IMG/VR virus record: IMGVR_UViG_3300045950_000056
Span: 1-53,719 of that record
Source of the DNA: a virus
Lineage: Duplodnaviria > Caudoviricetes
Length of the DNA stretch: 53,719 bases
Strand: one strand, 5' to 3'
Part shown: piece by piece, positions 20,615 to 45,456 of the stretch
How the letters are laid out: each line of letters starts with the position of its first letter
Numbering within the stretch: the first letter of the stretch is position 1
The notes under the pieces: model-generated
What the model was told of the DNA's origin: nothing
The model's input: only the letters and a program-made list of their open reading frames with translations
The model's database searches: none
Program-made: the position numbers and the translations under genes

Positions 20615-21307
20615 ATGGACCCATTGAGCCCAAAGGAGCGCAGTCGTCGGATGATCCGCGTTCGCTCAACTGAAAACCGGTCAACCGAATGGAAGTTCCG
20701 CTCGGCGCTCATCCGGCAAGGACTCAGGAACTGGGTAATGCACCCGCGCTCAATTCCTGGCGTGCCAGACTTTCTCTTCCCGCCACGTAAGCTAGCGATC
20801 TTCATTGACGGATGTTTTTGGCACCGTTGTCCCAAGTGTCGTCGACGCCTGCCAGCGACCAACCGCGCATACTGGTCTCGAAAAGTGAAATCCAACGTGG
20901 CGCGCGCGCGGAGCGTCACGCGCCAGCTCCGTCACGAGCGCTTCGCCGTCGTTAGAATCTGGGAGCACGAGCTCCGCTCTCTAGGCTCGCTCCAAAAACT
21001 CTTCCGCGCCTGCGCTACAGCCCGAGTCGTTTCTACTGGACGCCATCCGCCGAGGAGTAACCCCAGGAGCTTCGCTGTCGGTGCTGGGATCGCCCGCCTG
21101 CCTGTCTCCCAGCGGGTTACCGTGACGCGGTGGACCCCGACGAGGCGGGCAAGCCCGGCCTGGCTGACGCGCAGGCGACCCCGGATCGCCCGGCAGTGGG
21201 TTGGGGTCATCTCCACATCCATCCGACGATTCCTGATATCCCCGCACTTGCAGCATTTCATGTGCGGCTTCCTCCGGATAGTGTCTGGCGGCACGTCGAG
21301 ACAGTAG
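20615..21307 (+). CDS. vsr: Very-short-patch repair endonuclease with non-conserved C-terminal run-on
   Basis: MD...RSRRM..VRS, PGVPDF, IFIDGCFWH, YWSRK..NVAR, VRIWEHE. Confidence 0.9.
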   Translation: MDPLSPKERSRRMIRVRSTENRSTEWKFRSALIRQGLRNWVMHPRSIPGVPDFLFPPRKLAIFIDGCFWHRCPKCRRRLPATNRAYWSRKVKSNVARARSVTRQLRHERFAVVRIWEHELRSLGSLQKLFRACATARVVSTGRHPPRSNPRSFAVGAGIARLPVSQRVTVTRWTPTRRASPAWLTRRRPRIARQWVGVISTSIRRFLISPHLQHFMCGFLRIVSGGTSRQ

Positions 21308-21324
21308 CAATGGTCACACGTCAT
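20932..21324 (-). CDS. Zn-ribbon plus XRE/Cro-type HTH regulator
   Basis: CDHC...CCKC then IRGRLRVSQAGLARLVGVHRVTVTRWETGRRAIP; GGAGG RBS before ATG 21324. Confidence 0.8.
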   Translation of the reverse strand: MTCDHCYCLDVPPDTIRRKPHMKCCKCGDIRNRRMDVEMTPTHCRAIRGRLRVSQAGLARLVGVHRVTVTRWETGRRAIPAPTAKLLGLLLGGWRPVETTRAVAQARKSFWSEPRERSSCSQILTTAKRS

Positions 21325-21338
21325 ACCCAACCTCCACC

Positions 21339-21358
21339 AGTGCCCCTGCGCGGGCACC
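21339..21358. promoter_or_regulatory. Palindrome copy with 2-nt central insertion
   Basis: AGTGCCCctGCGCGGGCACc directly upstream of the HTH gene RBS. Confidence 0.6.
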
Positions 21359-21581
21359 TAGCATCCGCTCCGAGATGCTTCATGAGCCAACCGGTCAAAC
21401 CACGGAGAGTCGAGCCAGATGTTACTCATGTTTCCGGCTTGCTCGTCCAAACCAGCGATTCAGCCAGACATGCCACGGACGCATCCGTCGAACGCGAAAC
21501 ATCGTGATAGTATGCCCTGGCCACGGGGACCATGAAAGGACGCGAATAGTTGAGGCCATTACGCGGGCACCGCCTCCGTTC

Positions 21582-21599
21582 AGTGCCCTTGCGGACACT
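21582..21599. promoter_or_regulatory. 18-bp palindrome copy (15/18)
   Basis: AGTGCCCttGCGGaCACT just downstream of the leftward promoter. Confidence 0.55.
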
Positions 21600-21627
21600 C
21601 ACAGCGTTGCCGGGTCATTTTGGACAG

Positions 21628-21657
21628 AGGATATAGCCACTGGTTACGTCTTGTCAA
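21628..21657 (-). promoter_or_regulatory. Leftward sigma70-type promoter TTGACA-N18-TATCCT
   Basis: Perfect -35 at head of the leftward operon; a second TTGACA at 21685-21690 faces right. Confidence 0.6.
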
Positions 21658-21721
21658 GTGAAAAAATCGCGCGACAAAATTTCCTTGACACGCCACCGCA
21701 CATCCGAGAGGATGAACAGCG

Positions 21722-22096
21722 ATGACTGTACCCGACCGCGCATCCGAGCTCCCTAGCCCTGTAAGAGTCCTCCTGCCCTCTGGGGCCACTGTGGAGGCTC
21801 AGGCAGTAGGTCTCCCCTCCCCCAGGGTCAACGTCGCAACAGAATCACCTCCTCTCGGAGGCGTCAGACCCGGTGCTGGACGGCCCCGGAAGTATTCCGA
21901 TAACGCCTCCCGACACCGTGCCTTTCGGGCACGCCACCGGACACCCTGGAAGCCGATCTTGCGTGCGCTGAGGCGGCACGAGAAACGCTTGCAGGCTAAG
22001 GGGATTCTCGTGAAGGGCCAGGAGCAGAGCAGGGGAACATCCAGCGTGACAGGCGGGGATCTGAGGACGAACGGAGATGCGGCGCAACTCACTTGA
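21722..22096 (+). CDS. Small basic putative DNA-binding protein
   Basis: GGVRPGAGRPRKYSDNASRHRAFRAR motif; GAGG RBS. Confidence 0.55.
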   Translation: MTVPDRASELPSPVRVLLPSGATVEAQAVGLPSPRVNVATESPPLGGVRPGAGRPRKYSDNASRHRAFRARHRTPWKPILRALRRHEKRLQAKGILVKGQEQSRGTSSVTGGDLRTNGDAAQLT

Positions 22097-22247
22097 TGGC
22101 GACCGTCGCGCCGTCTGGTTTTGCCTGCTAGCGGTGTGGGCTCTGGTTCTGCGGAATTCCTTTAGCCCCTTAAGGAGTGGCAGAAATGACACAAGAAGAG
22201 GGGGCGCTACCCTCCAGAGAGCGCGCCAGCGAACCTGCGTCCCCCAC

Positions 22248-22347
22248 TGGAAAGACCGTGGTGGGATTCGAACCCACGGCGGCGTGGTAACGCACGCCGC
22301 ACCTAGCGGCGAGCTAGGCGCCTTAGGCCACTCTCAGCCACCCGGTC
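22248..22347 (-). tRNA. Aberrant class II (Ser-like body) tRNA with anticodon CGC
   Basis: Cloverleaf: acceptor GACCGGG/CACGGTC (one mismatch), D-loop AGTGGCCTAA, anticodon stem CCTAG/CTAGG with loop CTCGCCG, 8-bp variable arm, T arm GTGGG-TTCGAAT-CCCAC, then TTT-CCA. Confidence 0.85.
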
Positions 22348-22401
22348 AAGTCAGGGGCGCCCGAAACCTTGCCAAGGGAAGGGCGCCCTTGGTGCTTCTC
22401 T

Positions 22402-22430
22402 TGCTAACATAATGACGGATTATCAGACGC
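22402..22430 (-). other. dif: dif-like XerC/XerD recombination site
   Basis: Minus strand GCGTCTGATAA-TCCGTCA-TTATGTTAGCA: 11-bp arms, ATAA/TTAT inner symmetry, XerD core TTATGTTA, 7-bp spacer. Confidence 0.7.
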
Positions 22431-22580
22431 TGGGAAATCAAGGGCTTGTGGGTACGCCAGTTACCCTACAATCCAGTGTAGGCTCATCCCGAGTGCGTGG
22501 TGGCGAAAATGAGACTGTCATGACATGTGTCAGATACGAGACACTCAATGGGGCGCCTATTCTCCATGGGTGGCGAGCGG

Positions 22581-22596
22581 TGTTTCACGTGGAACA
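22581..22596. other. parS: Chromosomal-type parS centromere site
   Basis: TGTTTCACGTGGAACA; reverse complement fits TGTTNCACGTGAAACA fully; non-coding context. Confidence 0.85.
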
Positions 22597-22812
22597 CGAA
22601 GTGGGTGTTATGGCCATGGTGTAGTGTTCTCATGGGCGCTGACCCATATACAATCACCCCCTTTGGCGTCAGTTTTGGCGGCAGTTTTTCTCCAGAAAGG
22701 CGATTCACAAAATGACCTTGGGAATTGCACAGCCGGCCCCCTCGCTCGAAAATTTCCGATATACCCAAAATCCAGTTGGGGGTAGGGGGGGCCTGCGAAG
22801 TCGGGAGGGAAG

Positions 22813-23091
22813 ATGTCCACGGCATATGATCTTCTAGCCCTCGCGCTGCTGCTAATTGGGTTCGCGGCAGTTTATTATGTCGGTCGAAAACATGGCGAGC
22901 TTTCGGCACCGACGGGCTGCGTGGGCGTTCACCATCTGTGGCGCGGGGGATCATGGATCTGTGTCTGCCGGAGCTTCAGAGTGGACCCTGACGCCCGTCT
23001 ATTGATCCCGGTCCCGAATACTGCCGAGACTGAAACCGGCGCAAGAGCCATGAAGCACGACCAGAGGAGGCGCACCAATGACCCTTGGTGA
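22813..23091 (+). CDS. Small membrane protein
   Basis: GGAGG RBS, N-terminal TM. Confidence 0.6.
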   Translation: MSTAYDLLALALLLIGFAAVYYVGRKHGELSAPTGCVGVHHLWRGGSWICVCRSFRVDPDARLLIPVPNTAETETGARAMKHDQRRRTNDPW

Positions 23092-23213
23092 AGAGATCAG
23101 AGAACTGGACGTCGAACCGCTCCAGTGGCCCTCGGCCCTCCCGGCGCAACAGCCCGTATCCGTGCCAGAGCCAGCGCCAGAGGCTATCCCAGCCGAGGTT
23201 GAGGGGGCGCATC

Positions 23214-23885
23214 ATGCCAGTTGATCCGCTCTCCCGGGACCCCCTCGGCCAATTCCTTCGACAACTCCAACAAGCCCAACTCCAACAAGCCCTACAACAG
23301 ACATCTGCGACTGCAAGCACGGTAACCGCATCCTGGAGCAGTCCAATGGCGGGCGGACCGTTCACAACAAGCACGTTCACAACGACAACGGGCACCTCTT
23401 CCATCTACGTCCCCCACACATCCCACGGGAGTGCGCGACCAGAAACAGTCCTCGCCGGTCCGATTCTAGCGTATCGGTACTATTTCATGTGGGAAGCTCC
23501 GGGACAGGAATTGCGGTTGTATCCGCTGACTACCAGAGAGGGCCTTCCCTACGGAAGGGTTCTGGCCGCCACGCATGACTCCTCAGGAGCGCCCGCGCCA
23601 GCCAGAGGATGTTCCTGCGGCTATTATTCGATGAAAACCATGAAGCTCCTGATGGACTACCCGCTCCCGAACCCCCTCATCCCAGTCATCTATGCGCTCG
23701 TCGCCTGCTGGGGGCGCGTCATCGAACACCGCGACGGCTACCGGTCTCAGTACCAGTATCCCGTGCGCGTCTGGCTGCCTCGACCTGAGATTCCTGGATT
23801 TCCTCGCTCCCCGCATCTCGATCGGATGCTGGCGACGATTCAGGACCGGTACGGATGTGAGATCGGGCCTCCTCCCCCCTCGTAA
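23214..23885 (+). CDS. Hypothetical protein with CxCGYY...WGRVIEH..GYR domain
   Basis: Recurrent phage domain pattern; RBS GAGGGG. Confidence 0.65.
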   Translation: MPVDPLSRDPLGQFLRQLQQAQLQQALQQTSATASTVTASWSSPMAGGPFTTSTFTTTTGTSSIYVPHTSHGSARPETVLAGPILAYRYYFMWEAPGQELRLYPLTTREGLPYGRVLAATHDSSGAPAPARGCSCGYYSMKTMKLLMDYPLPNPLIPVIYALVACWGRVIEHRDGYRSQYQYPVRVWLPRPEIPGFPRSPHLDRMLATIQDRYGCEIGPPPPS

Positions 23886-23890
23886 CGTCG

Positions 23891-24253
23891 ATGCCCCGCC
23901 GATCCACGGGTCCGCAGATCATCGTCACCGGCCCGACGACGGTGGAACACGCCTGTCCCATCTGCGGGACCATGGTGGAAACGAAATGGCCCCGGAACGG
24001 CCCGTATCGGATCTTTTGCGGCAAAACGGCGTGCACGCGAGAAGCCGAGAAGCAACGGCGACGGCAGCGGCGGCAGGCACGCGGGCAGTACTGGCCGCGA
24101 CGCAGCCGGACGCGGCTCCGAGACTTTTTGCGGGCCGTGGACCAGATGCCAGCCATCCCGCTCACCTCGCTTCCGCCGATTGTGGTCTCCCGACCCCCCA
24201 CCTTCGCCCCGTCCGTGCTCCCATGGCATACTAGGGACCAGCATGGATCATGA
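23891..24253 (+). CDS. Zn-ribbon protein
   Basis: CPICG...FCGKTAC plus Arg-rich helix. Confidence 0.6.
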   Translation: MPRRSTGPQIIVTGPTTVEHACPICGTMVETKWPRNGPYRIFCGKTACTREAEKQRRRQRRQARGQYWPRRSRTRLRDFLRAVDQMPAIPLTSLPPIVVSRPPTFAPSVLPWHTRDQHGS

Positions 24254-25466: not shown

Positions 25467-25651
25467 CTGTGGACGCCATCGGCCAGCGGATCGTGCTCTG
25501 GATTGCGGAACGCAGTGATCTGCCTAGTGCCGTGATCGAACGAGTACTCGCCCTGCAAGCGGACTACTGGATCGCGCATCAAGATGAACTGGCCGGGCTA
25601 CTTCAGTGTGAGCGATGTGCTCGGGAGACGGAGGATGGCCCAGACATTTGA
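25463..25651 (+). CDS. Small hypothetical protein
   Basis: ATGA coupling; WIAERSDLPSAVIERVL helix pattern. Confidence 0.5.
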   Translation: MTVDAIGQRIVLWIAERSDLPSAVIERVLALQADYWIAHQDELAGLLQCERCARETEDGPDI

Positions 25652-26738
25652 TCGAGAGATTCGGGCGGCGGCCCGTGAAACCGGAATTCCCGAGGACCTG
25701 ATCCGGTCGGTGATCAAGGTCGAATCGAATTTCAACCCTCGCGCGGTCGGTGCCCAAGGTGAACAGGGCCTCATGCAGCTGGGACCTGATCTCGCCCGGT
25801 CGCTCCCCGATCCCTTCGAGCCTCGCGCGAACATTCGGCGAGGGGCCCAGTTCCTTAAAGAACTGCTCGATCGGTTTGGGGATCAAGAATTGGCGCTGGC
25901 GGCCTACAACGCGGGACCGACGCGCGTGAGTCGACTCGGGCGACGGATATTCTCAGAAATCCCGAGTGTGCGGAGGTATGTGGATCGGGTGCTCGGGCGG
26001 ATGACGGCCATCGCCGAATCGCCTGAGCCGCGCTTGGCTCCGCCGACTCCGGGACGCCCATCGGAACGCCCGACCCGTCCGACGTTGTCCCGAGAACCCA
26101 TCGTCGACCGTCCGCTGATCTCAGCGGGCGAGGCGCCGAGACCCTCACGCCCCCCGTTGCCAGAACCTCCACGGGTCTCCGTGCGGCCTCCCTTGGAGGA
26201 GACGGCCAGTCAGCTCGTGCCTCGACCGATCCCCCCACGGGTGCATCGGGAGGGTCCGCCGAGAGCGGGCCCCCCGCCACCAGCGAGAATTCCTGTCGCG
26301 TCCGTGCTGGCCCATCTTCGCCCCCGGGAAGCGCAGGCGGAGATTCGGCGCCCCGTGCCCGGCCACACCGAATCATTCCCGGTTCCCATCCCGCCCACGT
26401 TCGAGCCCCTCGAACCGGTCGAGATGCCGGCCGGTCCATTCCGACCTCGCGCAGATGTGCCCGAAGGGCCACCCCCGGGAGTGCCCCAACCCGCCGATTT
26501 GGAACGCCTCGGACTCCGGCTGAGTCCGCTAGCGACGATCTCGGACCGTCCAGCTCCGATCGCCGTGGTCATTCCGGTTCCCTCACCCCCGCCACCGACT
26601 CCTCCGCCTCTGGCGGACCTCACCGAGGCGGGACGCGAATGGCACCGGCTCTACGCGATGATGCACCGCCAGATGGTCGATCAGGCGTTCGCCCGCCTCC
26701 GGGAGCGAGAAGCCGAGTCCCTCATCCAGGCGCCCTGA
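25635..26738 (+). CDS. Soluble lytic transglycosylase domain plus long Pro/Arg-rich tail
   Basis: IKVESNFNPRAV, GLMQL, NIRRGAQFL, ALAAYNAGP. Confidence 0.9.
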   Translation: MAQTFDREIRAAARETGIPEDLIRSVIKVESNFNPRAVGAQGEQGLMQLGPDLARSLPDPFEPRANIRRGAQFLKELLDRFGDQELALAAYNAGPTRVSRLGRRIFSEIPSVRRYVDRVLGRMTAIAESPEPRLAPPTPGRPSERPTRPTLSREPIVDRPLISAGEAPRPSRPPLPEPPRVSVRPPLEETASQLVPRPIPPRVHREGPPRAGPPPPARIPVASVLAHLRPREAQAEIRRPVPGHTESFPVPIPPTFEPLEPVEMPAGPFRPRADVPEGPPPGVPQPADLERLGLRLSPLATISDRPAPIAVVIPVPSPPPPTPPPLADLTEAGREWHRLYAMMHRQMVDQAFARLREREAESLIQAP

Positions 26739-28465
26739 TGCCCTGGCCGACGGCATCCCTGAAACACCCGGACCTCGAACGCTATCACTGGATTCGGGAA
26801 TTGCACCGGTGTGAGCGGCGGTTCGACTATCTCTGCGCGTCGTACCTCCACATCAAATCCAAGGACGTGATCGGATTTCCGACGCTCCGGTTCAATCCCG
26901 TGCAGCGAGTGCTCTGGGAGCGGATGCGGGCCCAACTCCGGCGGGAGGGATGGGTGCGGCAAGTATGGGGCAAAGCCCGCGCGGTCGGCGCCTCCACGCT
27001 GGCCGAGGCGTGGACCTTTTATAACACCGCCTATCAGGATAATCGCAGCGCGATCATGCTCGTCCACGACGAGCCCACGTCATTTGAGCGGTTCGACGTG
27101 ATTCATACGTTCCTGGATGCGCTGCCCGATCCGTTGAAACCGCTGTGTTCGTACCGCTCCAAAACGCGCATGATGTTCAAGAACCGGAATTCCAAGATCA
27201 AGACGGGCCATGCGCGGAATCCGAACGTCGGAGCCTCTGAAACCATTCATATCAGTCACGAGACCGAATGGGCGCGATATCCGAACCCGGAGGAGGTGCA
27301 AGCCTCTCTCGCGCCGACCTATTCCGAGGCGAAGGGCGCGCAGTTTTCTTCGGTGATCCGGGAATCGACCTCCGTGTACGGCGGGACGTGGTTCAAGGAG
27401 TTCGCGGAGGCCAGCCGAAAGGGCGAGACCGAGTACGAATTTCATTTCGTCCCGTGGTTTCTCCATCAGAGCTATACCGCGCCTGTGCCCGAGGACTTCG
27501 AGCTGACGGTGGACGAGCAGGAACTGAAACGTCGCTATCAGCTCACCGATGGACAGCTGGCGTGGCGGCGCAAAAAGCAAACCGAATATGTCACCAATCC
27601 GCAGTTGATCGACCAGGAGTATCCCTACAGTTGGGAGGATAGCTGGCGACTCCCGAAAGGGACGCGGCGCCTCCTGGATGAGGCGCTCTTGACGGCCCTG
27701 AAACAGGGGGTCCGCCCGGCGACGCGCATGATGCCGACCTCGACGGGCTTGGAGGCGATGCTGGGAGGACCGGTGGACGTCTGGGCCGAACCGGAGGAGG
27801 GCGTCTTCTATGATTTCGGGCTCGATCCGGCCGAGGGGGCCTCCGACGCCTCGGACTGGACGGTCGGATGCGTGATCCGGCGGGATACGCTCGAACAGGT
27901 CGCGCAGTTTCGCCTCCATCTCAACCCCGCGGCCCCGGAATTCTTCGATCTGGTGTATTGGCTTGGCATGGCCTATCATGGGGCCCAGTTCTGCCCGGAT
28001 ATCACGGCGGGATGGGGCCATGCGGTCATGCGGGAGATGATGCACCGGAACTATCCGACGATCTGGCGCTGGCGGCACTTCGATGACGCGAAAGGCCGCG
28101 CGAGCCAGAAGCTCGGCTTTCTCTTTACGCCGCAGTCCAAGCGGACGCTGGTGACCACGACGGTCGCCGCCCTGACGGCGGGCCATGTTACGATTCACTC
28201 AGAAATTCTGTGGAATGAACTGGTCGAATTCCTGTGTCTCGGCCTCGATCAGTGGGGGGCGGCCCCGGGACACCATGATGACTGCGTGGTCGCCTGGATG
28301 CTGGCGATCCTGGCCGCGCGCGGCGAGCAATCCACCCTGATCCCGGCGGATCCCCCCGTGGTCGCCACAACCATCGGGAAACCCTGGGCGGTCCATGATG
28401 TGGACGCGGATTTGCCCGCAGCGGCCCTGGCGTGGTTAGACACTTCACCGTGGAGGATTCGATGA
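26738..28465 (+). CDS. terL: Terminase large subunit
   Basis: KARAVGAST Walker A, HETE Walker B, EST coupling motif, GLDPAEG and HDDCVVA nuclease motifs. Confidence 0.9.
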   Translation: MPWPTASLKHPDLERYHWIRELHRCERRFDYLCASYLHIKSKDVIGFPTLRFNPVQRVLWERMRAQLRREGWVRQVWGKARAVGASTLAEAWTFYNTAYQDNRSAIMLVHDEPTSFERFDVIHTFLDALPDPLKPLCSYRSKTRMMFKNRNSKIKTGHARNPNVGASETIHISHETEWARYPNPEEVQASLAPTYSEAKGAQFSSVIRESTSVYGGTWFKEFAEASRKGETEYEFHFVPWFLHQSYTAPVPEDFELTVDEQELKRRYQLTDGQLAWRRKKQTEYVTNPQLIDQEYPYSWEDSWRLPKGTRRLLDEALLTALKQGVRPATRMMPTSTGLEAMLGGPVDVWAEPEEGVFYDFGLDPAEGASDASDWTVGCVIRRDTLEQVAQFRLHLNPAAPEFFDLVYWLGMAYHGAQFCPDITAGWGHAVMREMMHRNYPTIWRWRHFDDAKGRASQKLGFLFTPQSKRTLVTTTVAALTAGHVTIHSEILWNELVEFLCLGLDQWGAAPGHHDDCVVAWMLAILAARGEQSTLIPADPPVVATTIGKPWAVHDVDADLPAAALAWLDTSPWRIR

Positions 28466-29038: not shown

Positions 29039-30760
29039 ATGGCGACCCTGACCCTTCCTGACGTGATCCGATTGGAGGGTCGTCGAAAAACGCCAGAAGA
29101 GGATCAGGCGTTGAAGGTCCTCGATACGCTCTTTGACGAGGCGAAGCGGGCGAAAGATCACTGGGTCAAGCAGGAGGACATTGACCGCGATCTGAAGCTC
29201 TATCGCGGCCAGGTGGGACCTCCGAACCGCGAGCCGCACTTCAAAGCTAACTTTGTTGAAGCGTTCATCGACCGGATGACCGCCCAGTTGACCGATAACC
29301 GCCCGATTATCCGAGTCGAATCCCGAAAAGACGGGCTGAAAGGCGTCGCGGATGTCGCCAACAAGGTCGTGCGGGCCATCTGGGACGACGAAGATGTCCA
29401 GCGGCAGACCTTCAAAATGTGCCATAACGCCGCCGTCACCCGCTCGTCGGGATTTTACACGGGCTATGATCCGCTTCTGGATCAAGTGGTCCTGGAACTC
29501 GTGCCGATCTCCCAGGTGTGGATTGACCCGGCCGTGTCCGAGGCCGCGCGGGTCAGCAAACACGCCGAATACGTCATCATCGAGCGCATCCGGTCCTTGG
29601 AAGAAGTGAAGGCACGATTCGGCCGACGGGCGGACGGGCTCACGGCCGATTCGGACATTGATGTCGTCCCACAGGAGCGCCGGTCGGTGGCCTCTCCGCT
29701 GACCGATATTGTCTTTGGTCGGCGTCTTCGGGGCGGAATGGGCGTGCCACGGATCAAATTGAGGGAACATCTGCTCCGGGATTGGGCCGTCTCGACCGAG
29801 AACGGCTCGGTCCGCCTCAGCAATCCCGGAGGCCGCATCCTGATCCGGTCGAAGGATCGGCTGCTCTACGCGGGACCGAACCCGTACTGGGACAGCGAAT
29901 TCTGTCTGGACTGGTTCGACTGGCGGGTCGATCCGCAGCATCCCTGGGGGGCCTCCGAGCCCGACCGGCTCCGGCACCTCCAAATTTCCTTTAACGAGAT
30001 CATGGACGGACTCGTTGAAAACCAACTCCTGAGTAATTTCCTGGCCTTGGTCGCTGATTTCGACGCCTTCAGCCCGGAGACCTGGACCAAGCTCCAACAG
30101 ATCAGCTCGAGCCTGATTCTCAGGAAGCAAAACCGGAATGCCTCGGCAGTCCTGACGCCGCCGCCGACGTTCGGAGCCGATAAAATCGCCCTCGCGCGAC
30201 AACTCTTCACGTTCGCCCAACTCCTGACGGGCGTGACCGATGTCACGCTCGGCGAAAGTCCGGGATCGCTCCAGTCTGGCGTCGCGCTCGAAGGGCTCCA
30301 GGAGGGGGCGAATCTCATGACGCGCTCGCGGGCCTCTCGGTTGGAGGATTTTTTTGCCCGCATCGGGCAGAAACTCCTCGCCCGGATTTTTCAGTTTATG
30401 ACCTCGGATCGTGTCGTGTCGTTGGTGGGTCCGACCGGGGCCGCTTTGGAATACGCGATCAAACGCCAGGAATTTTTCACCCGCGACGACGGGAACGCCA
30501 TCCCGGAACACGAGCGGCGCCAGGTCTTTCGGGATCTTCGCTTCGTTGTGTCACCGGGCTCCTCGGCCATTGGGAGCCGAGTCCGTCGAGTGGAAGCGAC
30601 CCTGAAGCTCAAGGAAGCGGGCGTCGCCTCAAGCCTGGATGTGCTCCAAGCTGGCGATTTTCCAGAACCGGAGGGCATGATCGAGCGGGCCAAGAAGGAA
30701 TTGATGGAAATGGCCCCCGTCCTCAACCTGTTAGGATCAAGACGTGGCCCTGCCAGTTGA
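29039..30760 (+). CDS. Portal protein (podovirus/P22-like)
   Basis: 573 aa after TerL; YRGQ, LTDNRP, VWIDP, LQISFNE, TGVTDVTLG, SGVAL. Confidence 0.85.
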   Translation: MATLTLPDVIRLEGRRKTPEEDQALKVLDTLFDEAKRAKDHWVKQEDIDRDLKLYRGQVGPPNREPHFKANFVEAFIDRMTAQLTDNRPIIRVESRKDGLKGVADVANKVVRAIWDDEDVQRQTFKMCHNAAVTRSSGFYTGYDPLLDQVVLELVPISQVWIDPAVSEAARVSKHAEYVIIERIRSLEEVKARFGRRADGLTADSDIDVVPQERRSVASPLTDIVFGRRLRGGMGVPRIKLREHLLRDWAVSTENGSVRLSNPGGRILIRSKDRLLYAGPNPYWDSEFCLDWFDWRVDPQHPWGASEPDRLRHLQISFNEIMDGLVENQLLSNFLALVADFDAFSPETWTKLQQISSSLILRKQNRNASAVLTPPPTFGADKIALARQLFTFAQLLTGVTDVTLGESPGSLQSGVALEGLQEGANLMTRSRASRLEDFFARIGQKLLARIFQFMTSDRVVSLVGPTGAALEYAIKRQEFFTRDDGNAIPEHERRQVFRDLRFVVSPGSSAIGSRVRRVEATLKLKEAGVASSLDVLQAGDFPEPEGMIERAKKELMEMAPVLNLLGSRRGPAS

Positions 30761-32621: not shown

Positions 32622-33572
32622 ATGGCGATTCCGACTCGGACGCAGACCCTCAACACATTCGTCGCCGCGACGCAGGAATCCCGGCGACCCGGGCTGATCG
32701 ACAACTTCTTCAAATCCGCACCCACCGTGATTCGGATGCGGTCGAAACACGCCGTCCGATTACGCGGCGGCGAGATCATCAAAGTGCAGCACATCTATCA
32801 GAATTTCGATGCCTCCTCGTATGGTCGGGGCACCGAATTCTCGACCGAGGTCAAAGAGTTCGCCACCTCCATGGTGTTCAACTGGAAGTTTGCCTACGCC
32901 CCCGTGAATCTCGACACCATTGATGTGGATCTGAACGATTCGCCCGAGCAGGTGTTCGACCTGGTGGACGCCGCCCTGGAAGTGGGCGAGCTGTCCCTCA
33001 TTAACGACCTCGGAGAGCAGCTGTTCGGCGACGGAACCGGAAACAGTAGTCTCGACTTCGACGGCCTGGCCAACGCGGTGTCCACCAGCGGAAGTTACGG
33101 CGGGATCACCCGAGGCGCGGATGCCCAAGGTAGCTCGATCAAGGCGGCATTCGAGGATGCCACCGGAGGCACGCTCAGCCTGGCCTTGATGAATTCCAAT
33201 TTCGGGAGCGCGGTCGTCGCCCGGAAAAAGCCCGATCTGATCCCTACCACGCAGACCTTGTGGAACCGGATCTGGGAGCGGTCGCAACCTTCGGAACAGA
33301 ATAATGGCGGAGACGACCTCCGGGAGATCGGACTGGATACCGTGCGATTCAACGGAGCCGACGTGGTGGTGGATTCGCACTGCCCGTCGGGGTTCATGTA
33401 TTTCCTGAACACGGACTACTGGGAATTCTATGTGCACCAGAAATGGGATTTTCGGTTCCGAGGGTTCATGGAACCGACCAACCAGCAGCGGCAGATCGGC
33501 CAGCAGATTGTCTGGGGCAACTTCGTCTGCCGGGGTCCACGGTTCCAAGGCGTGATGAGCGGACTGAGCTAA
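32622..33572 (+). CDS. Major capsid protein (podovirus type)
   Basis: 316 aa; LIDNFF, FNWK, LFGDGTG, FDGL, KPDLI, MYFLNT; AGGAGG RBS. Confidence 0.9.
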   Translation: MAIPTRTQTLNTFVAATQESRRPGLIDNFFKSAPTVIRMRSKHAVRLRGGEIIKVQHIYQNFDASSYGRGTEFSTEVKEFATSMVFNWKFAYAPVNLDTIDVDLNDSPEQVFDLVDAALEVGELSLINDLGEQLFGDGTGNSSLDFDGLANAVSTSGSYGGITRGADAQGSSIKAAFEDATGGTLSLALMNSNFGSAVVARKKPDLIPTTQTLWNRIWERSQPSEQNNGGDDLREIGLDTVRFNGADVVVDSHCPSGFMYFLNTDYWEFYVHQKWDFRFRGFMEPTNQQRQIGQQIVWGNFVCRGPRFQGVMSGLS

Positions 33573-41960: not shown

Positions 41961-43501
41961 TGCCTCGCGGACTGACCAAAACGGTTCTCCCGGCCGCACC
42001 CGGTGGAGTGATCGAGCGCGTCAACCCAGCGACGATCCCGGACGGCAAACTCCTGGCCTCCAAGAACTGGATCACCCGAGAGGGTACGGGGCGACCTCGA
42101 CCGGGCTACGAGCTGATCGGGAGCCAGTTGACCGCTGCCGACCCGGTCCTGGGCTTCGGCTTCCGGGGCACGCTCGCCACGGAATCCAACATGGTGGTCC
42201 ATACCGCCTCGGCGGCCTACTCGTGGAACGGCTCAGCCTTTTCGGCTATCACGGGGACCTGGACCAGCTCCAACGCGAACAACCACGTTCGCTTCACGGT
42301 CTTCCAGCAATCGGGGACGTTCATTTTGATTCGTACGAATCTCCAGAATGCACCCGACAAATGGACTGGAAGCGGATCGTTTGTCGATCTCGGGGGAACC
42401 CCGCCCGTCGCCCGGGATCTCACGACGACAAACGGGCGCGTCGTGCTCTTCTATGCCAACAACGAGCCCCGCCGGGTGCAGTGGTCGGGGTTTAACACCG
42501 CCGAGACGTGGGGCGCGGCGGATTTCTCGGACCTCACCGATACCCCCGATGAGATCGTGGGTGGCCGGGCCTTCGGACCCTTGTCCATGGCGATCTACAA
42601 GCAGGATTCGGTCTGGCTCGGGCAAGCCCAGGTCGCCGCCGCGCCCTTTCAGTTCCAGCTCATCGGGTTTACGCCGGGTCCGGTGAGCCCGGCCGCCATC
42701 GTCCCATGGCGGGAGGCGCATTATTACTTCGCCAAGGATTTGTCGGTCTACCGATTCGATGGGGGCCGAGTCCTGCCGGTCGGCGTGGATCTGCCGAAGC
42801 ATCTGCAACAAACGCTCGACTGGCCGAATCGGGATCGTATCTTCGGGTTCGTCCTCCCGCTCCCGGAACCGGAACTCTGGTTTGTGTATCCGCAAGAATC
42901 CGATGGCGCGATGAAGCGGGGCATTTCGATCAATCTCGCCACCAACGCCATGTCCCCGCACCAGTTCGCCCATGAGATTACGGCAGGATCGGAATGGATC
43001 GCTCGGCCCGTGCTCACCATCGACGGCCTGGATACGATCAGCGCGACCATCGACGGCTTGGATGCCTTCTACCCCACTATCGACTCGATGGGCACGCGAG
43101 CCAGCGTGACCTCCGTGATCGGAGAATCGACGGGGCGCGTGGATCGCTTCGGGAGGTCGGTCGATGACCGGGGCACGGCGATTGACTGGGAATTCACCCA
43201 TCCCTGGCGACCCGCCGGGGAGCTGGGGAATCGCTGCTACCTCGACGGAATCGCCAGTTATTGGAAGAAAACCCCCGCGTCGTTGACGGTGACGGTCGGT
43301 GTAACGATCACGGATTCGCTGGGCGATGCTGACACGGAGTCCACCGCGACTTTTAACACCTCGACGGACTCGAACCATCTCTCCACCTTTCCGAATAAGA
43401 CGGGTCAATGGGTGAAGGTGCGGCATGCCGCCAGTTCCCAAATCGCGGGGTTGGAACACCGGGGCGCCGCGATTCTCGCGTGGCCGAGGGCGATGGTCTA
43501 A
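41960..43501 (+). CDS. Tail nozzle/stabilisation protein (tubular B/gp10-like)
   Basis: RPGY, RVQWS...ETW, IYKQDSVW, YRFDG beta-propeller pattern. Confidence 0.75.
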   Translation: MPRGLTKTVLPAAPGGVIERVNPATIPDGKLLASKNWITREGTGRPRPGYELIGSQLTAADPVLGFGFRGTLATESNMVVHTASAAYSWNGSAFSAITGTWTSSNANNHVRFTVFQQSGTFILIRTNLQNAPDKWTGSGSFVDLGGTPPVARDLTTTNGRVVLFYANNEPRRVQWSGFNTAETWGAADFSDLTDTPDEIVGGRAFGPLSMAIYKQDSVWLGQAQVAAAPFQFQLIGFTPGPVSPAAIVPWREAHYYFAKDLSVYRFDGGRVLPVGVDLPKHLQQTLDWPNRDRIFGFVLPLPEPELWFVYPQESDGAMKRGISINLATNAMSPHQFAHEITAGSEWIARPVLTIDGLDTISATIDGLDAFYPTIDSMGTRASVTSVIGESTGRVDRFGRSVDDRGTAIDWEFTHPWRPAGELGNRCYLDGIASYWKKTPASLTVTVGVTITDSLGDADTESTATFNTSTDSNHLSTFPNKTGQWVKVRHAASSQIAGLEHRGAAILAWPRAMV

Positions 43502-45456
43502 TGCCGGGACTCCCGCAAACTCCTGATCTGCCGCGTGTCCCCGCCGATGACCGAGGGCTTCGGCTCTGGGCGGACTCCCATTCCCGGACGTTCGGCCGGT
43601 TATGGACGCATCTCACGCATGTCGTGAATGCGCTCAGCCAGACGGGCACAGCGGCCCAGAAGCCCAGTACGCCGGACCTCAATCATATCTTCTACACGGA
43701 GTCGGATACGAAGAAGACGTTTGTCGGGGTGGATGGCGCGTGGGTGCAGGTCGGGCGAAACCTCACCGTTCGGAAGAACAGCGGGGCCGATGTGGGGACG
43801 CGGCCACGGCTCAACCTGATCGAGGGGACGAATATCGGCCTCACGGTGGCTGACGATGCGGTCGATGATGAAGTGGATGTCACGATGACGGGCCGGGTGA
43901 CCGTCCGAAAGAACACCGGGGCCAACGTGGGCAGTCGCCCTCGGCTGAATCTCATCGAAGGCTCGAACATCACGCTGACGGTGGCCGACGATACGCCCGA
44001 CGACGAGATCGACGTCACGGTCGCGGCCGCCGGGGGGGGCCTCACCGGATCTGGCGTTGCCAATCAGGTCGCCTTCTGGACCGGCGCGACTTCGCTCGGC
44101 GGGGATACGGCGCTCACCTACAATGCGACGACCGATACGCTCACGGCCGCCATTATCTCGGATATCCGCATCGTGGATAATGTCAAATTCACCACGATCC
44201 AGCAGGCGATTGACAACCTCCCGGCGGCCGGCGGGATCGTGTATGTGCCACAAGGGACGTATGCGATCACCGCTGCCATTTCCATCACGAAACCGCTCAT
44301 CCTCATGGGGGCTGGGCCTCAGACGACTGAGATCACGACGACCTCGGCAACCATCGACATGCTCAGCATTGCGACGACGGCCCCGGTGTGCATTCGAGAT
44401 ATTCGGATTCGGAAAACTGTAACGGCGACCGCCGGGGCCGGTATCCGGGTCGCTGGATCAGGGGCCGATTGGAACCAGGACAGCCGAATCACGAACGTCC
44501 GCATCGAATCCCAGTGGGACGGCCTCGACTTCCAGGACGCCTCAGCCTGGACTGTCAGCGATTGCTTGATCCTGGAATGGCGCAACTTCGGCATTCGGGT
44601 TCGCAATACGCTCTCGCCCGATTCGGGGGACTCGACCATCTACGGCAACCTCTTGAGTTCTGCGGTGGCAGGGGCCGTGGGCATCCAGCAAGAATCCTCG
44701 GGAGGGCTGCGGATTGTCAGCAATAAGATCATCGGGCACGCCATCGGCTACCGGCTCAACGTGGCGACCGGGGTCTCGACCAGTGTGCTCCTGATCTCGG
44801 CCAATTCCATTGAAAACCAAGTGGACCGCTGTATCCAGCTCACCCGCACCGGGACCGGCGCGTTCTCTCAAATTTCCATCACCGGCAACCAGTTGGGGAC
44901 CGCCAGCACTCTGATTGAGGTGCTGGGAGGGGCCGGGGGGATTTCGCGGCTCGCCATCACGGGCAACACCTTGCAACTGGCCGCGAGCGGCAACGGCATT
45001 CTCTTGACCAACGGGGATGACGTGGGTATTTCGGCCAATGTCTTCCTCGGCGCGGCGAGCACGACCGGCGTCAGCGTGGGGGCTGGAGCCGCGAATGTGA
45101 AGATCGGGCGGAATACGTTCGCCAGCGTGACCACCGATGTCAGTCTCCCCTCAGGGACGAATGCCCACCACGTCGATCCGATCATCCAACGCGGAACGGA
45201 GACCATCACCACAAGCACCTTGGCGAATTACGGGACATTCTTTTCTGGGGATGCGACCGTCACGTTCCCCTTCGCCTTTCAAGCGGCGCCGCAGGTCTTT
45301 CTCACCGCCGAGAACGATGCGAATGGAGCCCTCTGCGGCGTCGTGAAGTCCGCGCCCTCCACGACCAGCGTGGCGATCAAAGGCATCGGCATCACGGCCA
45401 ACGTGGCGATCACGATTCACTGGGAAGCCGTGGGCACGAGGCTCCGGGGAGACTGA
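43501..45456 (+). CDS. Tailspike with pectin-lyase-like beta-helix
   Basis: TIQQAIDNLPAAGGIVYVPQGTY; repeated IxGN strands; duplicated VRKNxGAxVGxRPRLNLIEG. Confidence 0.85.
   Translation: MPGLPQTPDLPRVPADDRGLRLWADSHSRTFGRLWTHLTHVVNALSQTGTAAQKPSTPDLNHIFYTESDTKKTFVGVDGAWVQVGRNLTVRKNSGADVGTRPRLNLIEGTNIGLTVADDAVDDEVDVTMTGRVTVRKNTGANVGSRPRLNLIEGSNITLTVADDTPDDEIDVTVAAAGGGLTGSGVANQVAFWTGATSLGGDTALTYNATTDTLTAAIISDIRIVDNVKFTTIQQAIDNLPAAGGIVYVPQGTYAITAAISITKPLILMGAGPQTTEITTTSATIDMLSIATTAPVCIRDIRIRKTVTATAGAGIRVAGSGADWNQDSRITNVRIESQWDGLDFQDASAWTVSDCLILEWRNFGIRVRNTLSPDSGDSTIYGNLLSSAVAGAVGIQQESSGGLRIVSNKIIGHAIGYRLNVATGVSTSVLLISANSIENQVDRCIQLTRTGTGAFSQISITGNQLGTASTLIEVLGGAGGISRLAITGNTLQLAASGNGILLTNGDDVGISANVFLGAASTTGVSVGAGAANVKIGRNTFASVTTDVSLPSGTNAHHVDPIIQRGTETITTSTLANYGTFFSGDATVTFPFAFQAAPQVFLTAENDANGALCGVVKSAPSTTSVAIKGIGITANVAITIHWEAVGTRLRGD

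What the first reader, a model, noticed from the sequence alone, without database searches (positions are those of the whole stretch)
22248..22347. Ser-body tRNA with an Ala (CGC) anticodon and abnormal loop and 3' end
Seen: all stems pair except one acceptor mismatch. It has a long 8-bp variable arm, loop CTCGCCG (tRNA-Ser(CGA) typically has CTCGAAA), a pyrimidine at 37, C3:G70 rather than the AlaRS determinant G3:U70, and three T before CCA. Known: SerRS recognises the variable arm and ignores the anticodon. Inference: a GCG Ala-to-Ser mistranslating tRNA, a decoy against anticodon nucleases, a non-translational adaptor, or a decaying gene. Intact stems suggest structure is under selection.
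Basis: partly seen in the sequence, partly recalled or inferred. Interest (0 to 1): 0.7.

Follow-up and report, generated by a model that had tools for sequence, protein, structure and literature searches.

The report
Phage serine-type tRNA with disabled anticodon loop
An uncultivated groundwater phage carries one serine-shaped tRNA gene whose anticodon loop and acceptor end break the rules of working serine tRNAs, so it is most likely a disabled or repurposed tRNA rather than a device that rewrites alanine codons.

Summary
ARAGORN (22253-22347, minus strand, "Ala cgc") and Rfam tRNA (33.2 bits) both find the gene. ARAGORN made 1 call in 100 shuffles of the window. The window is a whole 53.7-kb phage record, and this is its only tRNA.

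The body is serine-type:
- All 15 nearest alphaproteobacterial matches fetched are tRNA-Ser.
- My Ser model scores it 53.8 bits and my Leu model 23.9.
- The 8-bp variable arm has one flanking base on each side.

It departs from all 19 cellular tRNA-Ser compared. It has A2:U71, C3:G70, G6•A67, U73, no in-register CCA, two extra D-loop bases, and the loop CUCGCCG (C37; C32 can pair with G38).

GCG makes up 4.4% of the phage's codons. At 108 conserved GCG sites relatives have Ala (45%), not Ser (8%), so there is no recoding.

I found no homologue: 0 of 19 related phage loci, 0 of 3 complete related genomes, and 5 pattern scans aimed at it. Selection on the structure therefore cannot be shown. No integrase was seen.

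My reading is a tRNA-Ser-derived gene that no longer decodes normally, either a relic (about 0.45) or a tRNA-shaped decoy (about 0.2). An active GCG-to-Ser mistranslator is unlikely (about 0.1).

The parts
22253..22347 (-). Serine-type (class II) tRNA-like gene, 95 nt, nominal anticodon CGC
   Evidence: ARAGORN. RF00005 at 33.2 bits. My Ser model R1 at 53.8 bits against my Leu model R2 at 23.9 bits.
22307..22313 (-). Anticodon loop CUCGCCG. The anticodon CGC lies at 22309-22311. It has C37 and G38, and C32 can pair with G38.
   Evidence: Sequence. The MFE fold closes C32:G38 and leaves a 5-nt loop. Of 43 ordinary tRNAs of genome G001, none has a pyrimidine at 37 or the C32/G38 combination.
22279..22300 (-). 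Variable arm: an 8-bp stem with a 6-nt loop and one unpaired base on each side
   Evidence: The 19 cellular tRNA-Ser have stems of 4-7 bp with the same one-base flanks.
22320..22338 (-). D arm of Ser type (GCU...GGC, with G13•A22) and two extra loop bases
   Evidence: the 8-26 region is 22 nt here and 20 nt in 19 of 19 cellular tRNA-Ser.
22261..22277 (-). T arm GUGGG-UUCGAAU-CCCAC, identical to that of many alphaproteobacterial tRNA-Ser
22248..22260 (-). 3' acceptor strand CACGGUC, U73, then the trailer UUCCA (this CCA is out of register)
   Evidence: All 19 cellular tRNA-Ser have G73 followed directly by CCA.
22355..22388 (-). GC-rich hairpin (GGGCGCCC...GGGCGCCC) ending 7 nt upstream of the tRNA 5' end
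   Evidence: Part of it (22370-22394) is listed as terminator-like on the + strand.
22197..22215 (-). Terminator-like hairpin followed by a T-rich tail, about 35 nt downstream of the tRNA
   Evidence: a consensus scan only.
21358..23400 (.). A region of about 2 kb around the gene with no clear coding signal and no relatives, between the leftward regulatory genes and the rightward lysis/packaging genes
   Evidence: No third-position GC bias. No Pfam or PHROG hits for its ORFs. No similarity to 20 related loci. ORF 21722-22096 has no homologue in 5.8 billion proteins. The right-hand limit of about 23,400 is my estimate.

Best explanation
This is a real tRNA-derived gene of the bacterial serine type, carried as the only tRNA of an uncultivated groundwater phage with a P22-like portal.

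The parts that give a tRNA its L-shape are intact:
- U8, A14, G15/C48, G18G19 and A21.
- The T loop UUCGAAU.
- 27 of 28 stem pairs.

Both functional ends have left the serine rule set:
- The 3' half of the anticodon loop reads C36-C37-G38, where the 19 tRNA-Ser compared have a purine at 37 and A at 38.
- The acceptor end has A2:U71, C3:G70, a G6•A67 mismatch, U73 and no in-register CCA.

I infer that it descends from a phage tRNA-Ser, probably the CGA isoacceptor. That tRNA reads UCG, the phage's commonest Ser codon. I infer that it no longer serves as a normal adaptor. If it is transcribed, it gives a stable tRNA-shaped RNA that cannot read Ser codons and would read GCG badly.

The most likely status is an inactivated relic in a poorly constrained, lineage-specific stretch of the genome. 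What is shown: the gene exists, its type, its deviations, and the absence of recoding. What is inferred: its ancestry and its loss of function.
For: The gene is real:
- (1 chance ARAGORN call in 100 shuffles).

It is serine-type:
- All 15 fetched best BLAST matches among 401 alphaproteobacterial genomes are tRNA-Ser: 14 UGA and 1 CGA.
- R1 (Ser) scores it 53.8 bits and R2 (Leu) 23.9 bits.

It deviates from working tRNA-Ser:
- All 19 cellular tRNA-Ser start GGA, have G73 plus CCA, a 20-nt D region, a purine at 37 and A38. The window gene has none of these.
- None of 43 ordinary tRNAs of G001 has a pyrimidine at 37 or C32 with G38. Its true tRNA-Ala(CGC) has the loop AUCGCAC.
- The MFE fold closes the loop to 5 nt.
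- RF00005 scores it 33.2 bits, against 44.0-62.9 for G001's four tRNA-Ser.

There is no recoding:
- GCG is 508 of 11,479 codons.
- At 108 GCG sites in 9 conserved genes, relatives have Ala 44.8% and Ser 7.7%. At 111 GCC sites they have 45.0% and 9.2%.

It is lineage-specific:
- 0 class II tRNAs in 19 TerL-related loci, and none in 3 complete related genomes.
- The surrounding 2 kb shows no coding signal and has no relatives.
- UCG is 29% of the phage's Ser codons.
Against: - The damage is not spread as random decay would spread it. Three adjacent loop positions (36-38) differ from a CGA-type loop, while only 1 of 28 stem pairs is broken and every tertiary-contact base is kept. That needs either one multi-base event or selection on the loop.
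- Phages usually lose useless DNA quickly.
- The gene is flanked by a hairpin upstream and a terminator-like hairpin downstream, like a self-standing unit.
- PMC5389517 (passages) accepts U73 plus a long arm as serine-like, so charging is not excluded.
- Expression could not be examined, so loss of function is inferred and not shown.
Confidence: 0.45

Rival explanations
1. Functional non-decoding tRNA mimic. The RNA keeps the tRNA-Ser body but has lost the GA step of the anticodon. It would then bind, without being cut, a host tRNA-Ser-directed anticodon nuclease or another tRNA-binding factor, acting as a sponge that protects the host tRNA-Ser pool during infection.
For: - The body and tertiary bases are intact, and the changes are concentrated in loop positions 36-38.
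- PMC5175351 (passages) reports that VapC28 and VapC30 cleave tRNA-Ser(UGA) and tRNA-Ser(CGA), and maps VapC28 cleavage of tRNA-Ser(UGA) between G and A in the anticodon loop.
- PMC10264068 (passages) argues that phage tRNAs carry loop changes that escape such enzymes, and that phages avoid the UCN-reading tRNA-Ser because the cut lies in the anticodon.
- The gene has its own flanking hairpins.
Against: - No decoy tRNA of this kind appeared in the papers I listed or read. By the abstracts listed (PMC11464382, PMC11555353), the known phage counter-measures are working tRNAs, and this one cannot restore Ser decoding.
- No nuclease, host or homologue is known here.
- There is no conservation.
Confidence: 0.2
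2. Active mistranslating adaptor. SerRS charges the RNA through its long variable arm, and it inserts Ser at GCG (Ala) codons. This would perturb the host or diversify phage proteins.
For: - The arm geometry is Ser-type.
- Natural class II tRNAs with non-cognate anticodons that insert Ser exist, namely the allo-tRNAs (PMC5389517, passages).
- The T stem is the same as in cellular tRNA-Ser.
Against: - GCG is 4.4% of the phage's own codons and 41% of its Ala codons.
- Its GCG sites are ordinary Ala sites.
- It has C37 and a closable C32:G38, seen in none of 43 working tRNAs.
- It lacks G2:C71 and G73, has a G6•A67 mismatch, and has no in-register CCA.
Confidence: 0.1
3. Integration-site remnant. 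The tRNA-like sequence is, or was, an attP that copies a host tRNA gene.
For: - A single tRNA-like element lying next to a repressor-like HTH gene is typical of temperate phages.
- Its 24-nt T-arm/acceptor 3' end is identical to that of cellular class II tRNAs in two alphaproteobacterial genomes.
Against: - No integrase or recombinase appeared in 60 ORF scans against Pfam or PHROGs.
- The element is a full cloverleaf, including the 5' half, not a 3' fragment.
- It is about 60% identical to the nearest cellular tRNA-Ser.
- The cellular tRNAs that share its 3' end are Leu-type with other arms.
Confidence: 0.05
4. A cis-acting RNA element: a tRNA-shaped RNase P/RNase Z processing site, or an antisense regulator in the control region between the divergent operons.
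For: - It lies in the roughly 2-kb non-coding stretch between the leftward and rightward gene blocks.
- The RNase P-processed C4 antisense RNA of phages P1 and P7 is a precedent.
Against: The loop region has no excess complementarity elsewhere in the genome: 3 matches with up to 2 mismatches, one of which is the gene itself, against 1.0 expected, and 9 of 100 shuffles did as well. There is no conservation.
Confidence: 0.08

Closest known systems
Bacterial (alphaproteobacterial) tRNA-Ser, canonical 7/5 class II
   Same: - D-arm pattern UGGCYGAG..GG...AAGGC.
- G15/C48.
- A long variable arm with one unpaired base on each side.
- An identical T arm.
- The best BLAST and covariance-model matches.
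   Different: - A2:U71 and C3:G70 where the 19 cellular tRNA-Ser compared have G2:C71 and A3:U70 (19 of 19).
- U73 instead of G73.
- No encoded CCA.
- Two extra D-loop bases.
- An 8-bp arm against 4-7 bp.
- Loop CUCGCCG, with a non-serine anticodon and C37.
allo-tRNAs (Mukai et al. 2017, PMC5389517; passages read)
   Same: - A long variable arm with G73 or U73.
- Anticodons that do not match the serine-like body.
- Found in Proteobacteria and phages, often beside mobile or toxin-antitoxin genes.
- Some members are inactive in translation.
   Different: - Allo-tRNAs are defined by an 8/4 or 9/3 acceptor/T branch and a tRNA-Sec-like D arm with a long stem and tetraloop.
- This gene is 7/5, because U8 cannot pair with C65, and it has a Ser-type D arm.
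- In the passages I read, CGC is named as a codon read by the GCG anticodon, not as an anticodon. I did not see their Figure 2.
Phage tRNAs with anticodon-loop changes that evade anticodon nucleases (PMC10264068, passages; PMC11464382 and PMC11555353, abstracts in the search listing)
   Same: It is phage-encoded, and the deviation from the host-type tRNA is concentrated in the anticodon loop at the site where VapC-type enzymes cut tRNA-Ser.
   Different: Those tRNAs keep their anticodon and still decode. This one has lost the Ser anticodon and the purine at 37.
tRNA pseudogenes
   Same: It has a low general tRNA score (33.2 bits), a mismatch in the acceptor stem, a non-canonical loop and no conservation in relatives.
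   Different: The stems and tertiary bases are almost wholly intact, and the changes cluster in three adjacent loop bases.
Leu-type tRNA with a UGG (Pro) anticodon beside an IS1595-family transposase gene
   Same: - A class II body with a non-cognate anticodon.
- No encoded CCA.
- It lies next to a mobile-element gene.
- The T arm and 3' acceptor strand are identical (24 of 24 nt), and the 5' strand differs at position 6 only.
   Different: - That tRNA is Leu-type: A73, and R2 60.7-64.1 bits against R1 55.9-60.2.
- It has a regular loop, UUUGGGA or UUUGGGU, and scores 57-59 bits on RF00005.
- It is conserved across three sequence variants whose variable-arm stems differ but can still pair by my reading of the sequences. 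I ran no pair count on them.
- The window gene has no such relatives.

Membership tests
tRNA (Rfam RF00005) | Cloverleaf with the T-loop and D-loop consensus, scoring at or above the gathering score of 29 bits | tested here: met
   33.2 bits, model positions 1-71. ARAGORN calls it. One chance call in 100 shuffles.
Bacterial tRNA-Ser | Long variable arm in the Ser orientation, with one unpaired base on each side of the stem | tested here: met
   An 8-bp stem with one base on each side, the same flanks as 19 of 19 cellular tRNA-Ser.
Bacterial tRNA-Ser | Sequence and structure closer to tRNA-Ser than to the other class II tRNAs | tested here: met
   All 15 nearest matches fetched are tRNA-Ser. 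R1 (Ser) scores 53.8 bits and R2 (Leu) 23.9 bits. R1 alone discriminates poorly: Leu and Tyr tRNAs score 43-60 bits on it.
Bacterial tRNA-Ser | G1:C72 and G2:C71 in the acceptor stem | tested here: not met
   G1:C72 is present, but pair 2-71 is A:U. All 19 comparators have G2:C71. PMC9976931 calls both pairs conserved in most bacterial tRNA-Ser.
Bacterial tRNA-Ser | Discriminator G73 | tested here: not met
   U73 here, against G73 in 19 of 19 comparators.
Bacterial tRNA-Ser | A serine anticodon (NGA or GCU) in a 7-nt loop with U33 and a purine at 37 | tested here: not met
   The loop is CUCGCCG, with anticodon CGC and C37. All 19 comparators have a purine at 37.
Bacterial tRNA-Ser | Charged by SerRS | not testable with these tools
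   This needs an aminoacylation assay.
tRNA-Ala | The G3:U70 pair, with a class I body (short variable loop) | tested here: not met
   C3:G70 and a 24-nt variable region. G001's tRNA-Ala(CGC) is 76 nt with the loop AUCGCAC.
allo-tRNA | 8/4 or 9/3 acceptor/T branch | tested here: not met
   The branch is 7/5. An eighth pair would be U8 with C65, which cannot form (sequence).
allo-tRNA | Long variable arm, G73 or U73, and a non-serine anticodon | tested here: met
   An 8-bp arm, U73 and anticodon CGC. The criteria come from PMC5389517.
tRNA-Leu (bacterial) | A73 and a Leu-type D arm and variable-arm base | tested here: not met
   U73. R2 scores it 23.9 bits, against 38-45 bits even for true Ser and Tyr tRNAs and 60-68 bits for Leu-type tRNAs.
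Phage attP copy of a host tRNA | An integrase gene in the phage, and identity to a host tRNA 3' part | tested here: not met
   No integrase or recombinase family appeared in 60 ORF scans. The nearest cellular tRNA-Ser is about 60% identical overall.

The most novel reading that the evidence does not exclude
The phage deliberately makes a serine-shaped tRNA whose anticodon loop has been rewritten so that tRNA-Ser-specific anticodon nucleases can bind it but cannot cut it. It would be a tRNA decoy or sponge, or else a low-level GCG-to-Ser mistranslator used against the host. Together with the Leu-shaped tRNA(UGG) found beside IS1595-family transposase genes, which shares the same acceptor/T minihelix, it would point to a family of class II tRNAs with non-cognate anticodons carried by mobile elements in Alphaproteobacteria.
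Probability: 0.2. Interest if true: 0.75.

Novelty: new variant of a known kind. Interest (0 to 1): 0.35.

Why it matters
If the RNA is made and does something, it would be a canonical 7/5 serine-type tRNA with a non-serine anticodon in a phage. That would extend the short list of natural class II tRNAs whose body and anticodon disagree, such as the allo-tRNAs. It would also give a concrete candidate for a tRNA decoy against anticodon nucleases. If it is a relic, it is an ordinary by-product of phage tRNA turnover. It then serves as a warning that 'tRNA-Ala(cgc)' calls by gene finders can hide serine-type bodies.

Tried and rejected
Searches for a homologue of the gene:
- Five exact-pattern scans aimed at it found nothing. 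These covered the anticodon arm with a free loop (viral contigs), the T-arm/acceptor 22-mer (viral contigs), and the D arm (genome contigs; viral contigs). The same 22-mer in metagenome contigs gave 8 loci, none Ser-type.
- The 24-mer in genome contigs gave only two Leu-type tRNA(UGG) genes and one Streptomyces tRNA-Cys.
- blastn of the tRNA region and of 20 kb around it against 50,697 phage records found no match.

Searches for related phages:
- TerL as a single query found 1 viral locus at 44% identity and no prophage.
- A TerL alignment gave 79 viral loci. I examined the 19 with 39-53% identity and left out the other 60, which are at most 27% identical. None of the 19 has a class II tRNA, and three carry a tRNA-Met.
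- Of 5 related whole records, one has an ordinary 73-nt tRNA.

Other ideas tested:
- Allo-tRNA (8/4) folding is impossible from the sequence.
- IS1595 remnant in the window: tblastn gave nothing better than E 0.67.
- Pseudogene remnants in 21300-24200: 6,383 ORFs from relatives gave only noise.
- Direct repeat 21385-21405 / 22336-22356 (81% identity): by my estimate this is within chance.
- The 8-mer shared by the anticodon loop and the variable-arm 3' strand (7 of 8): also within chance by my estimate.
- Antisense targets of the loop: none in excess.
- Weak Rfam YrlA hit (16.4 bits against a gathering score of 69): rejected.
- Sigma-70-like promoter upstream of the tRNA: none met the scan's threshold.

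Expression: no RNA holder is listed. The one run found is DNA contigs, so expression was not examined.

Not run or not available:
- tRNAscan-SE isotype models are not available. I replaced them with my own Ser and Leu models.
- The earlier-findings tool was not open.

Literature: three searches listed no paper describing a 7/5 serine-type phage tRNA with an alanine anticodon. Supplements, for example the allo-tRNA sequence sets and the phage tRNA tables of PMC10264068, were not seen and could hold such a case.

Full report
**What the window is.** The window is a complete virus record of 53,719 bases. Pfam and PHROG scans identify these genes:
- a P22-like portal (29039-30760);
- a large terminase (26639-28465);
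- a major head protein (32622-33572);
- a beta-helix tail protein (43408-45456);
- a transglycosylase (25584-26738);
- a RecT-like protein, an exonuclease, a helicase, RusA and HNH;
- two DNA methylases;
- a zinc-ribbon/HTH regulator with a weak MqsA-like hit (20932-21357, minus strand).

No integrase or recombinase family appeared in these 60 ORF scans. Cultured phages are distant: the best TerL match is 25.6% identical, in Roseobacter phage CRP-7. The only sequencing run that holds the region is a groundwater metagenome.

**The observation.** ARAGORN finds one tRNA, at 22253-22347 on the minus strand, and names it by its anticodon as tRNA-Ala(cgc). Rfam's tRNA model matches the same span with 33.2 bits, above the gathering score of 29, although the filtered whole-window run missed it.
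- one acceptor mismatch (G6•A67);
- C3:G70;
- loop CUCGCCG with C37;
- an 8-bp variable arm;
- U73 followed by UU and then CCA.

ARAGORN made one call in 100 dinucleotide shuffles of the window, so this is not a chance cloverleaf. A second assembly of the holder run is identical over 21700-22900. That run may be the source sample, so this only excludes an assembly slip.

**Which kind of tRNA.** I tested the 'Ser body' claim in three ways.
1. BLAST of the 95 nt against 401 alphaproteobacterial genomes gave best hits over the variable and T arms at 83-88% identity. All 15 of the fetched loci that I scanned carry a tRNA-Ser at the hit: 14 UGA and 1 CGA. In a phylum-wide sample of 401 genomes, only 2 reached E ≤ 5e-5, and both had already appeared in the class-level alphaproteobacterial sample. 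Eight of 401 in the class sample reached that level. This is a weak hint that the host is an alphaproteobacterium.
2. I compared the architecture with 19 cellular tRNA-Ser, the 15 above plus the 4 of genome G001. The window gene has the same D-arm pattern and the same one-base flanks of the variable stem.
3. I built covariance models from the 19 tRNA-Ser (R1) and from 20 tRNA-Leu (R2). They score the gene at 53.8 and 23.9 bits. R1 alone is not very selective, since Leu and Tyr tRNAs score 43-60 bits on it. The 30-bit difference is what separates the gene from Leu-type tRNAs, which score higher on R2 than on R1.

**Where it breaks the serine rules.**
- All 19 comparators begin GGA (G1, G2, A3), carry G73 followed directly by CCA, have a 20-nt D region, variable stems of 4-7 bp, a purine at 37 and A38.
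- The window gene has A2:U71, C3:G70, U73, no in-register CCA, a 22-nt D region, an 8-bp stem and the loop CUCGCCG.
- None of the 43 ordinary tRNAs of G001 has a pyrimidine at 37 or C32 with G38. Its real tRNA-Ala(CGC) has the loop AUCGCAC in a 76-nt class I body.
- ViennaRNA closes C32:G38 and extends the helix, leaving a 5-nt loop.
- The review PMC9976931 (passages) states that serine identity relies mainly on the variable arm, but also that G1-C72 and G2-C71 are conserved in most bacterial tRNA-Ser and that G73 contributes in vivo.
- PMC5389517 (passages) treats a long arm with G73 or U73 as serine-like.

Charging by SerRS is therefore possible but not assured. Normal decoding is unlikely.

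**Does the phage use GCG differently?** It does not. GCG is 508 of 11,479 codons in 40 ORFs and 41% of Ala codons. At 108 GCG sites in nine genes shared with related phages (1,160 aligned cells), the relatives have Ala 44.8% and Ser 7.7%. This is indistinguishable from 111 GCC sites, at 45.0% and 9.2%. TerL alone gives the same picture. A Ser-inserting GCG reader would be pure mistranslation of the phage's own proteins. UCG, which a CGA anticodon would read, is the commonest Ser codon at 29%. This is why I infer a CGA-type ancestor.

**Conservation.** None could be found.
- TerL relatives at 39-53% identity were recovered as 19 viral loci with up to 10 kb of flank. None has a class II tRNA, and three have a tRNA-Met.
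- Three complete related genomes have no tRNA, and one 88%-complete genome has an ordinary 73-nt tRNA.
- Synteny with relatives starts only at about 24.2 kb.
- The roughly 2 kb around the tRNA has no third-position GC bias, no family hits and no relatives.

The claim that intact stems show selection is therefore untestable at present. What can be said is this: relative to cellular tRNA-Ser, several acceptor and anticodon-stem pairs differ on both sides yet still pair. The lineage was therefore under tRNA-like constraint for most of its history.

**Interpretation.** I read this as a tRNA-Ser-derived gene that no longer works as a normal adaptor.
- A relic is the single most likely status (0.45). 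The clustering of changes at 36-38 in an otherwise intact body argues for a single multi-base event or for selection, so I keep a functional tRNA mimic at 0.2.
- The mimic idea has a concrete rationale. By the passages I read, VapC28 and VapC30 cleave tRNA-Ser(UGA) and tRNA-Ser(CGA), with the VapC28 cut in tRNA-Ser(UGA) mapped between G and A in the anticodon loop (PMC5175351). Phages are argued to escape such enzymes through loop changes (PMC10264068). Here the GA step is gone.
- An active GCG-to-Ser mistranslator gets 0.1.
- An attP remnant gets 0.05.
- A processing or antisense element gets 0.08. The loop shows no excess complementarity elsewhere in the genome.

**Comparison with known kinds.**
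- It is a tRNA by the Rfam test.
- It is serine-type by body, but fails three serine features that I tested: G2:C71, G73 and the anticodon loop.
- It is not an allo-tRNA, because the defining 8/4 or 9/3 branch is absent, although it resembles allo-tRNAs in pairing a serine-like body with a non-serine anticodon.
- It is not tRNA-Ala or tRNA-Leu.

**A related thing seen on the way.** The 24-nt T-arm/acceptor 3' end is shared exactly with a Leu-type class II tRNA that carries a UGG (Pro) anticodon and the regular loop UUUGGGA or UUUGGGU.
- It occurs in two alphaproteobacterial genomes and three metagenome contigs.
- It scores 57-59 bits on RF00005.
- The three sequence variants have different variable-arm stems that can still pair by my reading. 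I ran no pair count on them.
- It always lies convergent with an IS1595-family transposase gene, in a 1.2-kb block that is 70% identical between the two genomes and single-copy in each.
- G001 also has a canonical tRNA-Pro(UGG).

This conserved case is stronger than the window's orphan gene and deserves its own look.

Noticed in passing
L002:734-824(+), L004:3414-3502(-), L006:3098-3188(-), L008:458-547(-), L009:7147-7237(-): A Leu-type class II tRNA (A73, Leu-like D arm) carries a proline anticodon UGG in the regular loop UUUGGGA or UUUGGGU.
- The Leu model R2 scores three of the copies (L002, L004, L008) at 60.7-64.1 bits and the Ser model R1 at 55.9-60.2 bits.
- No CCA is encoded.
- It scores 57-59 bits on RF00005.
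- It is conserved in 3 sequence variants whose variable-arm stems differ but can still pair by my reading. I ran no pair count.
- It lies convergent with an IS1595-family transposase gene, in a 1.2-kb block that is 70% identical between two alphaproteobacterial genomes and single-copy in each.
- Genome G001 also has a canonical tRNA-Pro(UGG).
- It is a candidate natural Pro-to-Leu mistranslating tRNA, or a non-translational one.
   Followed up: partly
window 21358-23400: About 2 kb shows no coding signal, no family hits and no relatives. It lies between the leftward regulatory genes and the rightward lysis/packaging genes. It contains overlapping inverted repeats around 22516-22532 (TGTCATGACA, and TGACA-TG-TGTCA) that look like operator sites.
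   Followed up: partly
window 21722-22096 (+): A 124-aa ORF with a promoter-like site (21651-21680) and a terminator-like hairpin (22095-22115), convergent with the tRNA. It has no homologue other than itself among 5.8 billion proteins, and no Pfam or PHROG family.
   Followed up: partly
window 20932-21357 (-): A regulator with an N-terminal CxxC...CxxC zinc-ribbon-like stretch and an XRE-type HTH. It has a sub-threshold match to the MqsA antitoxin family (E 8e-4, 20 bits against a cut-off of 30). No partner toxin gene was seen.
   Followed up: no
Proteins P0013, P0018-P0021, P0037, P0043, P0044 (relatives of window 26639-28465): Several large-terminase relatives are 930-990 aa long and carry intein or LAGLIDADG homing-endonuclease domains (PF14528, PF14890, PF13403). 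The window's TerL (608 aa) has none.
   Followed up: no
L010:1476-1557 (+): An 82-nt tRNA-Leu(UAA) on a short metagenome contig has the same acceptor stem (GACCGUG/CACGGUC, A73) and T arm as the UGG tRNAs above, and nearly the same as the window's gene. This suggests a shared acceptor/T minihelix among these class II tRNAs.
   Followed up: partly
L007:2616-2637, L011:901-922, L012:2839-2860, L005:1543-1564: AT-rich metagenome contigs hold tRNA-like ends with the same 22-mer. ARAGORN does not call them as tRNAs. They may be tRNA-derived repeats of a eukaryote.
   Followed up: no
L020 (G001:C13:73170-73300): A 111-nt match to RF00005 at 35.8 bits, with a long internal insertion. ARAGORN does not call it. 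It is an unexplained tRNA-like element in the alphaproteobacterial genome.
   Followed up: no
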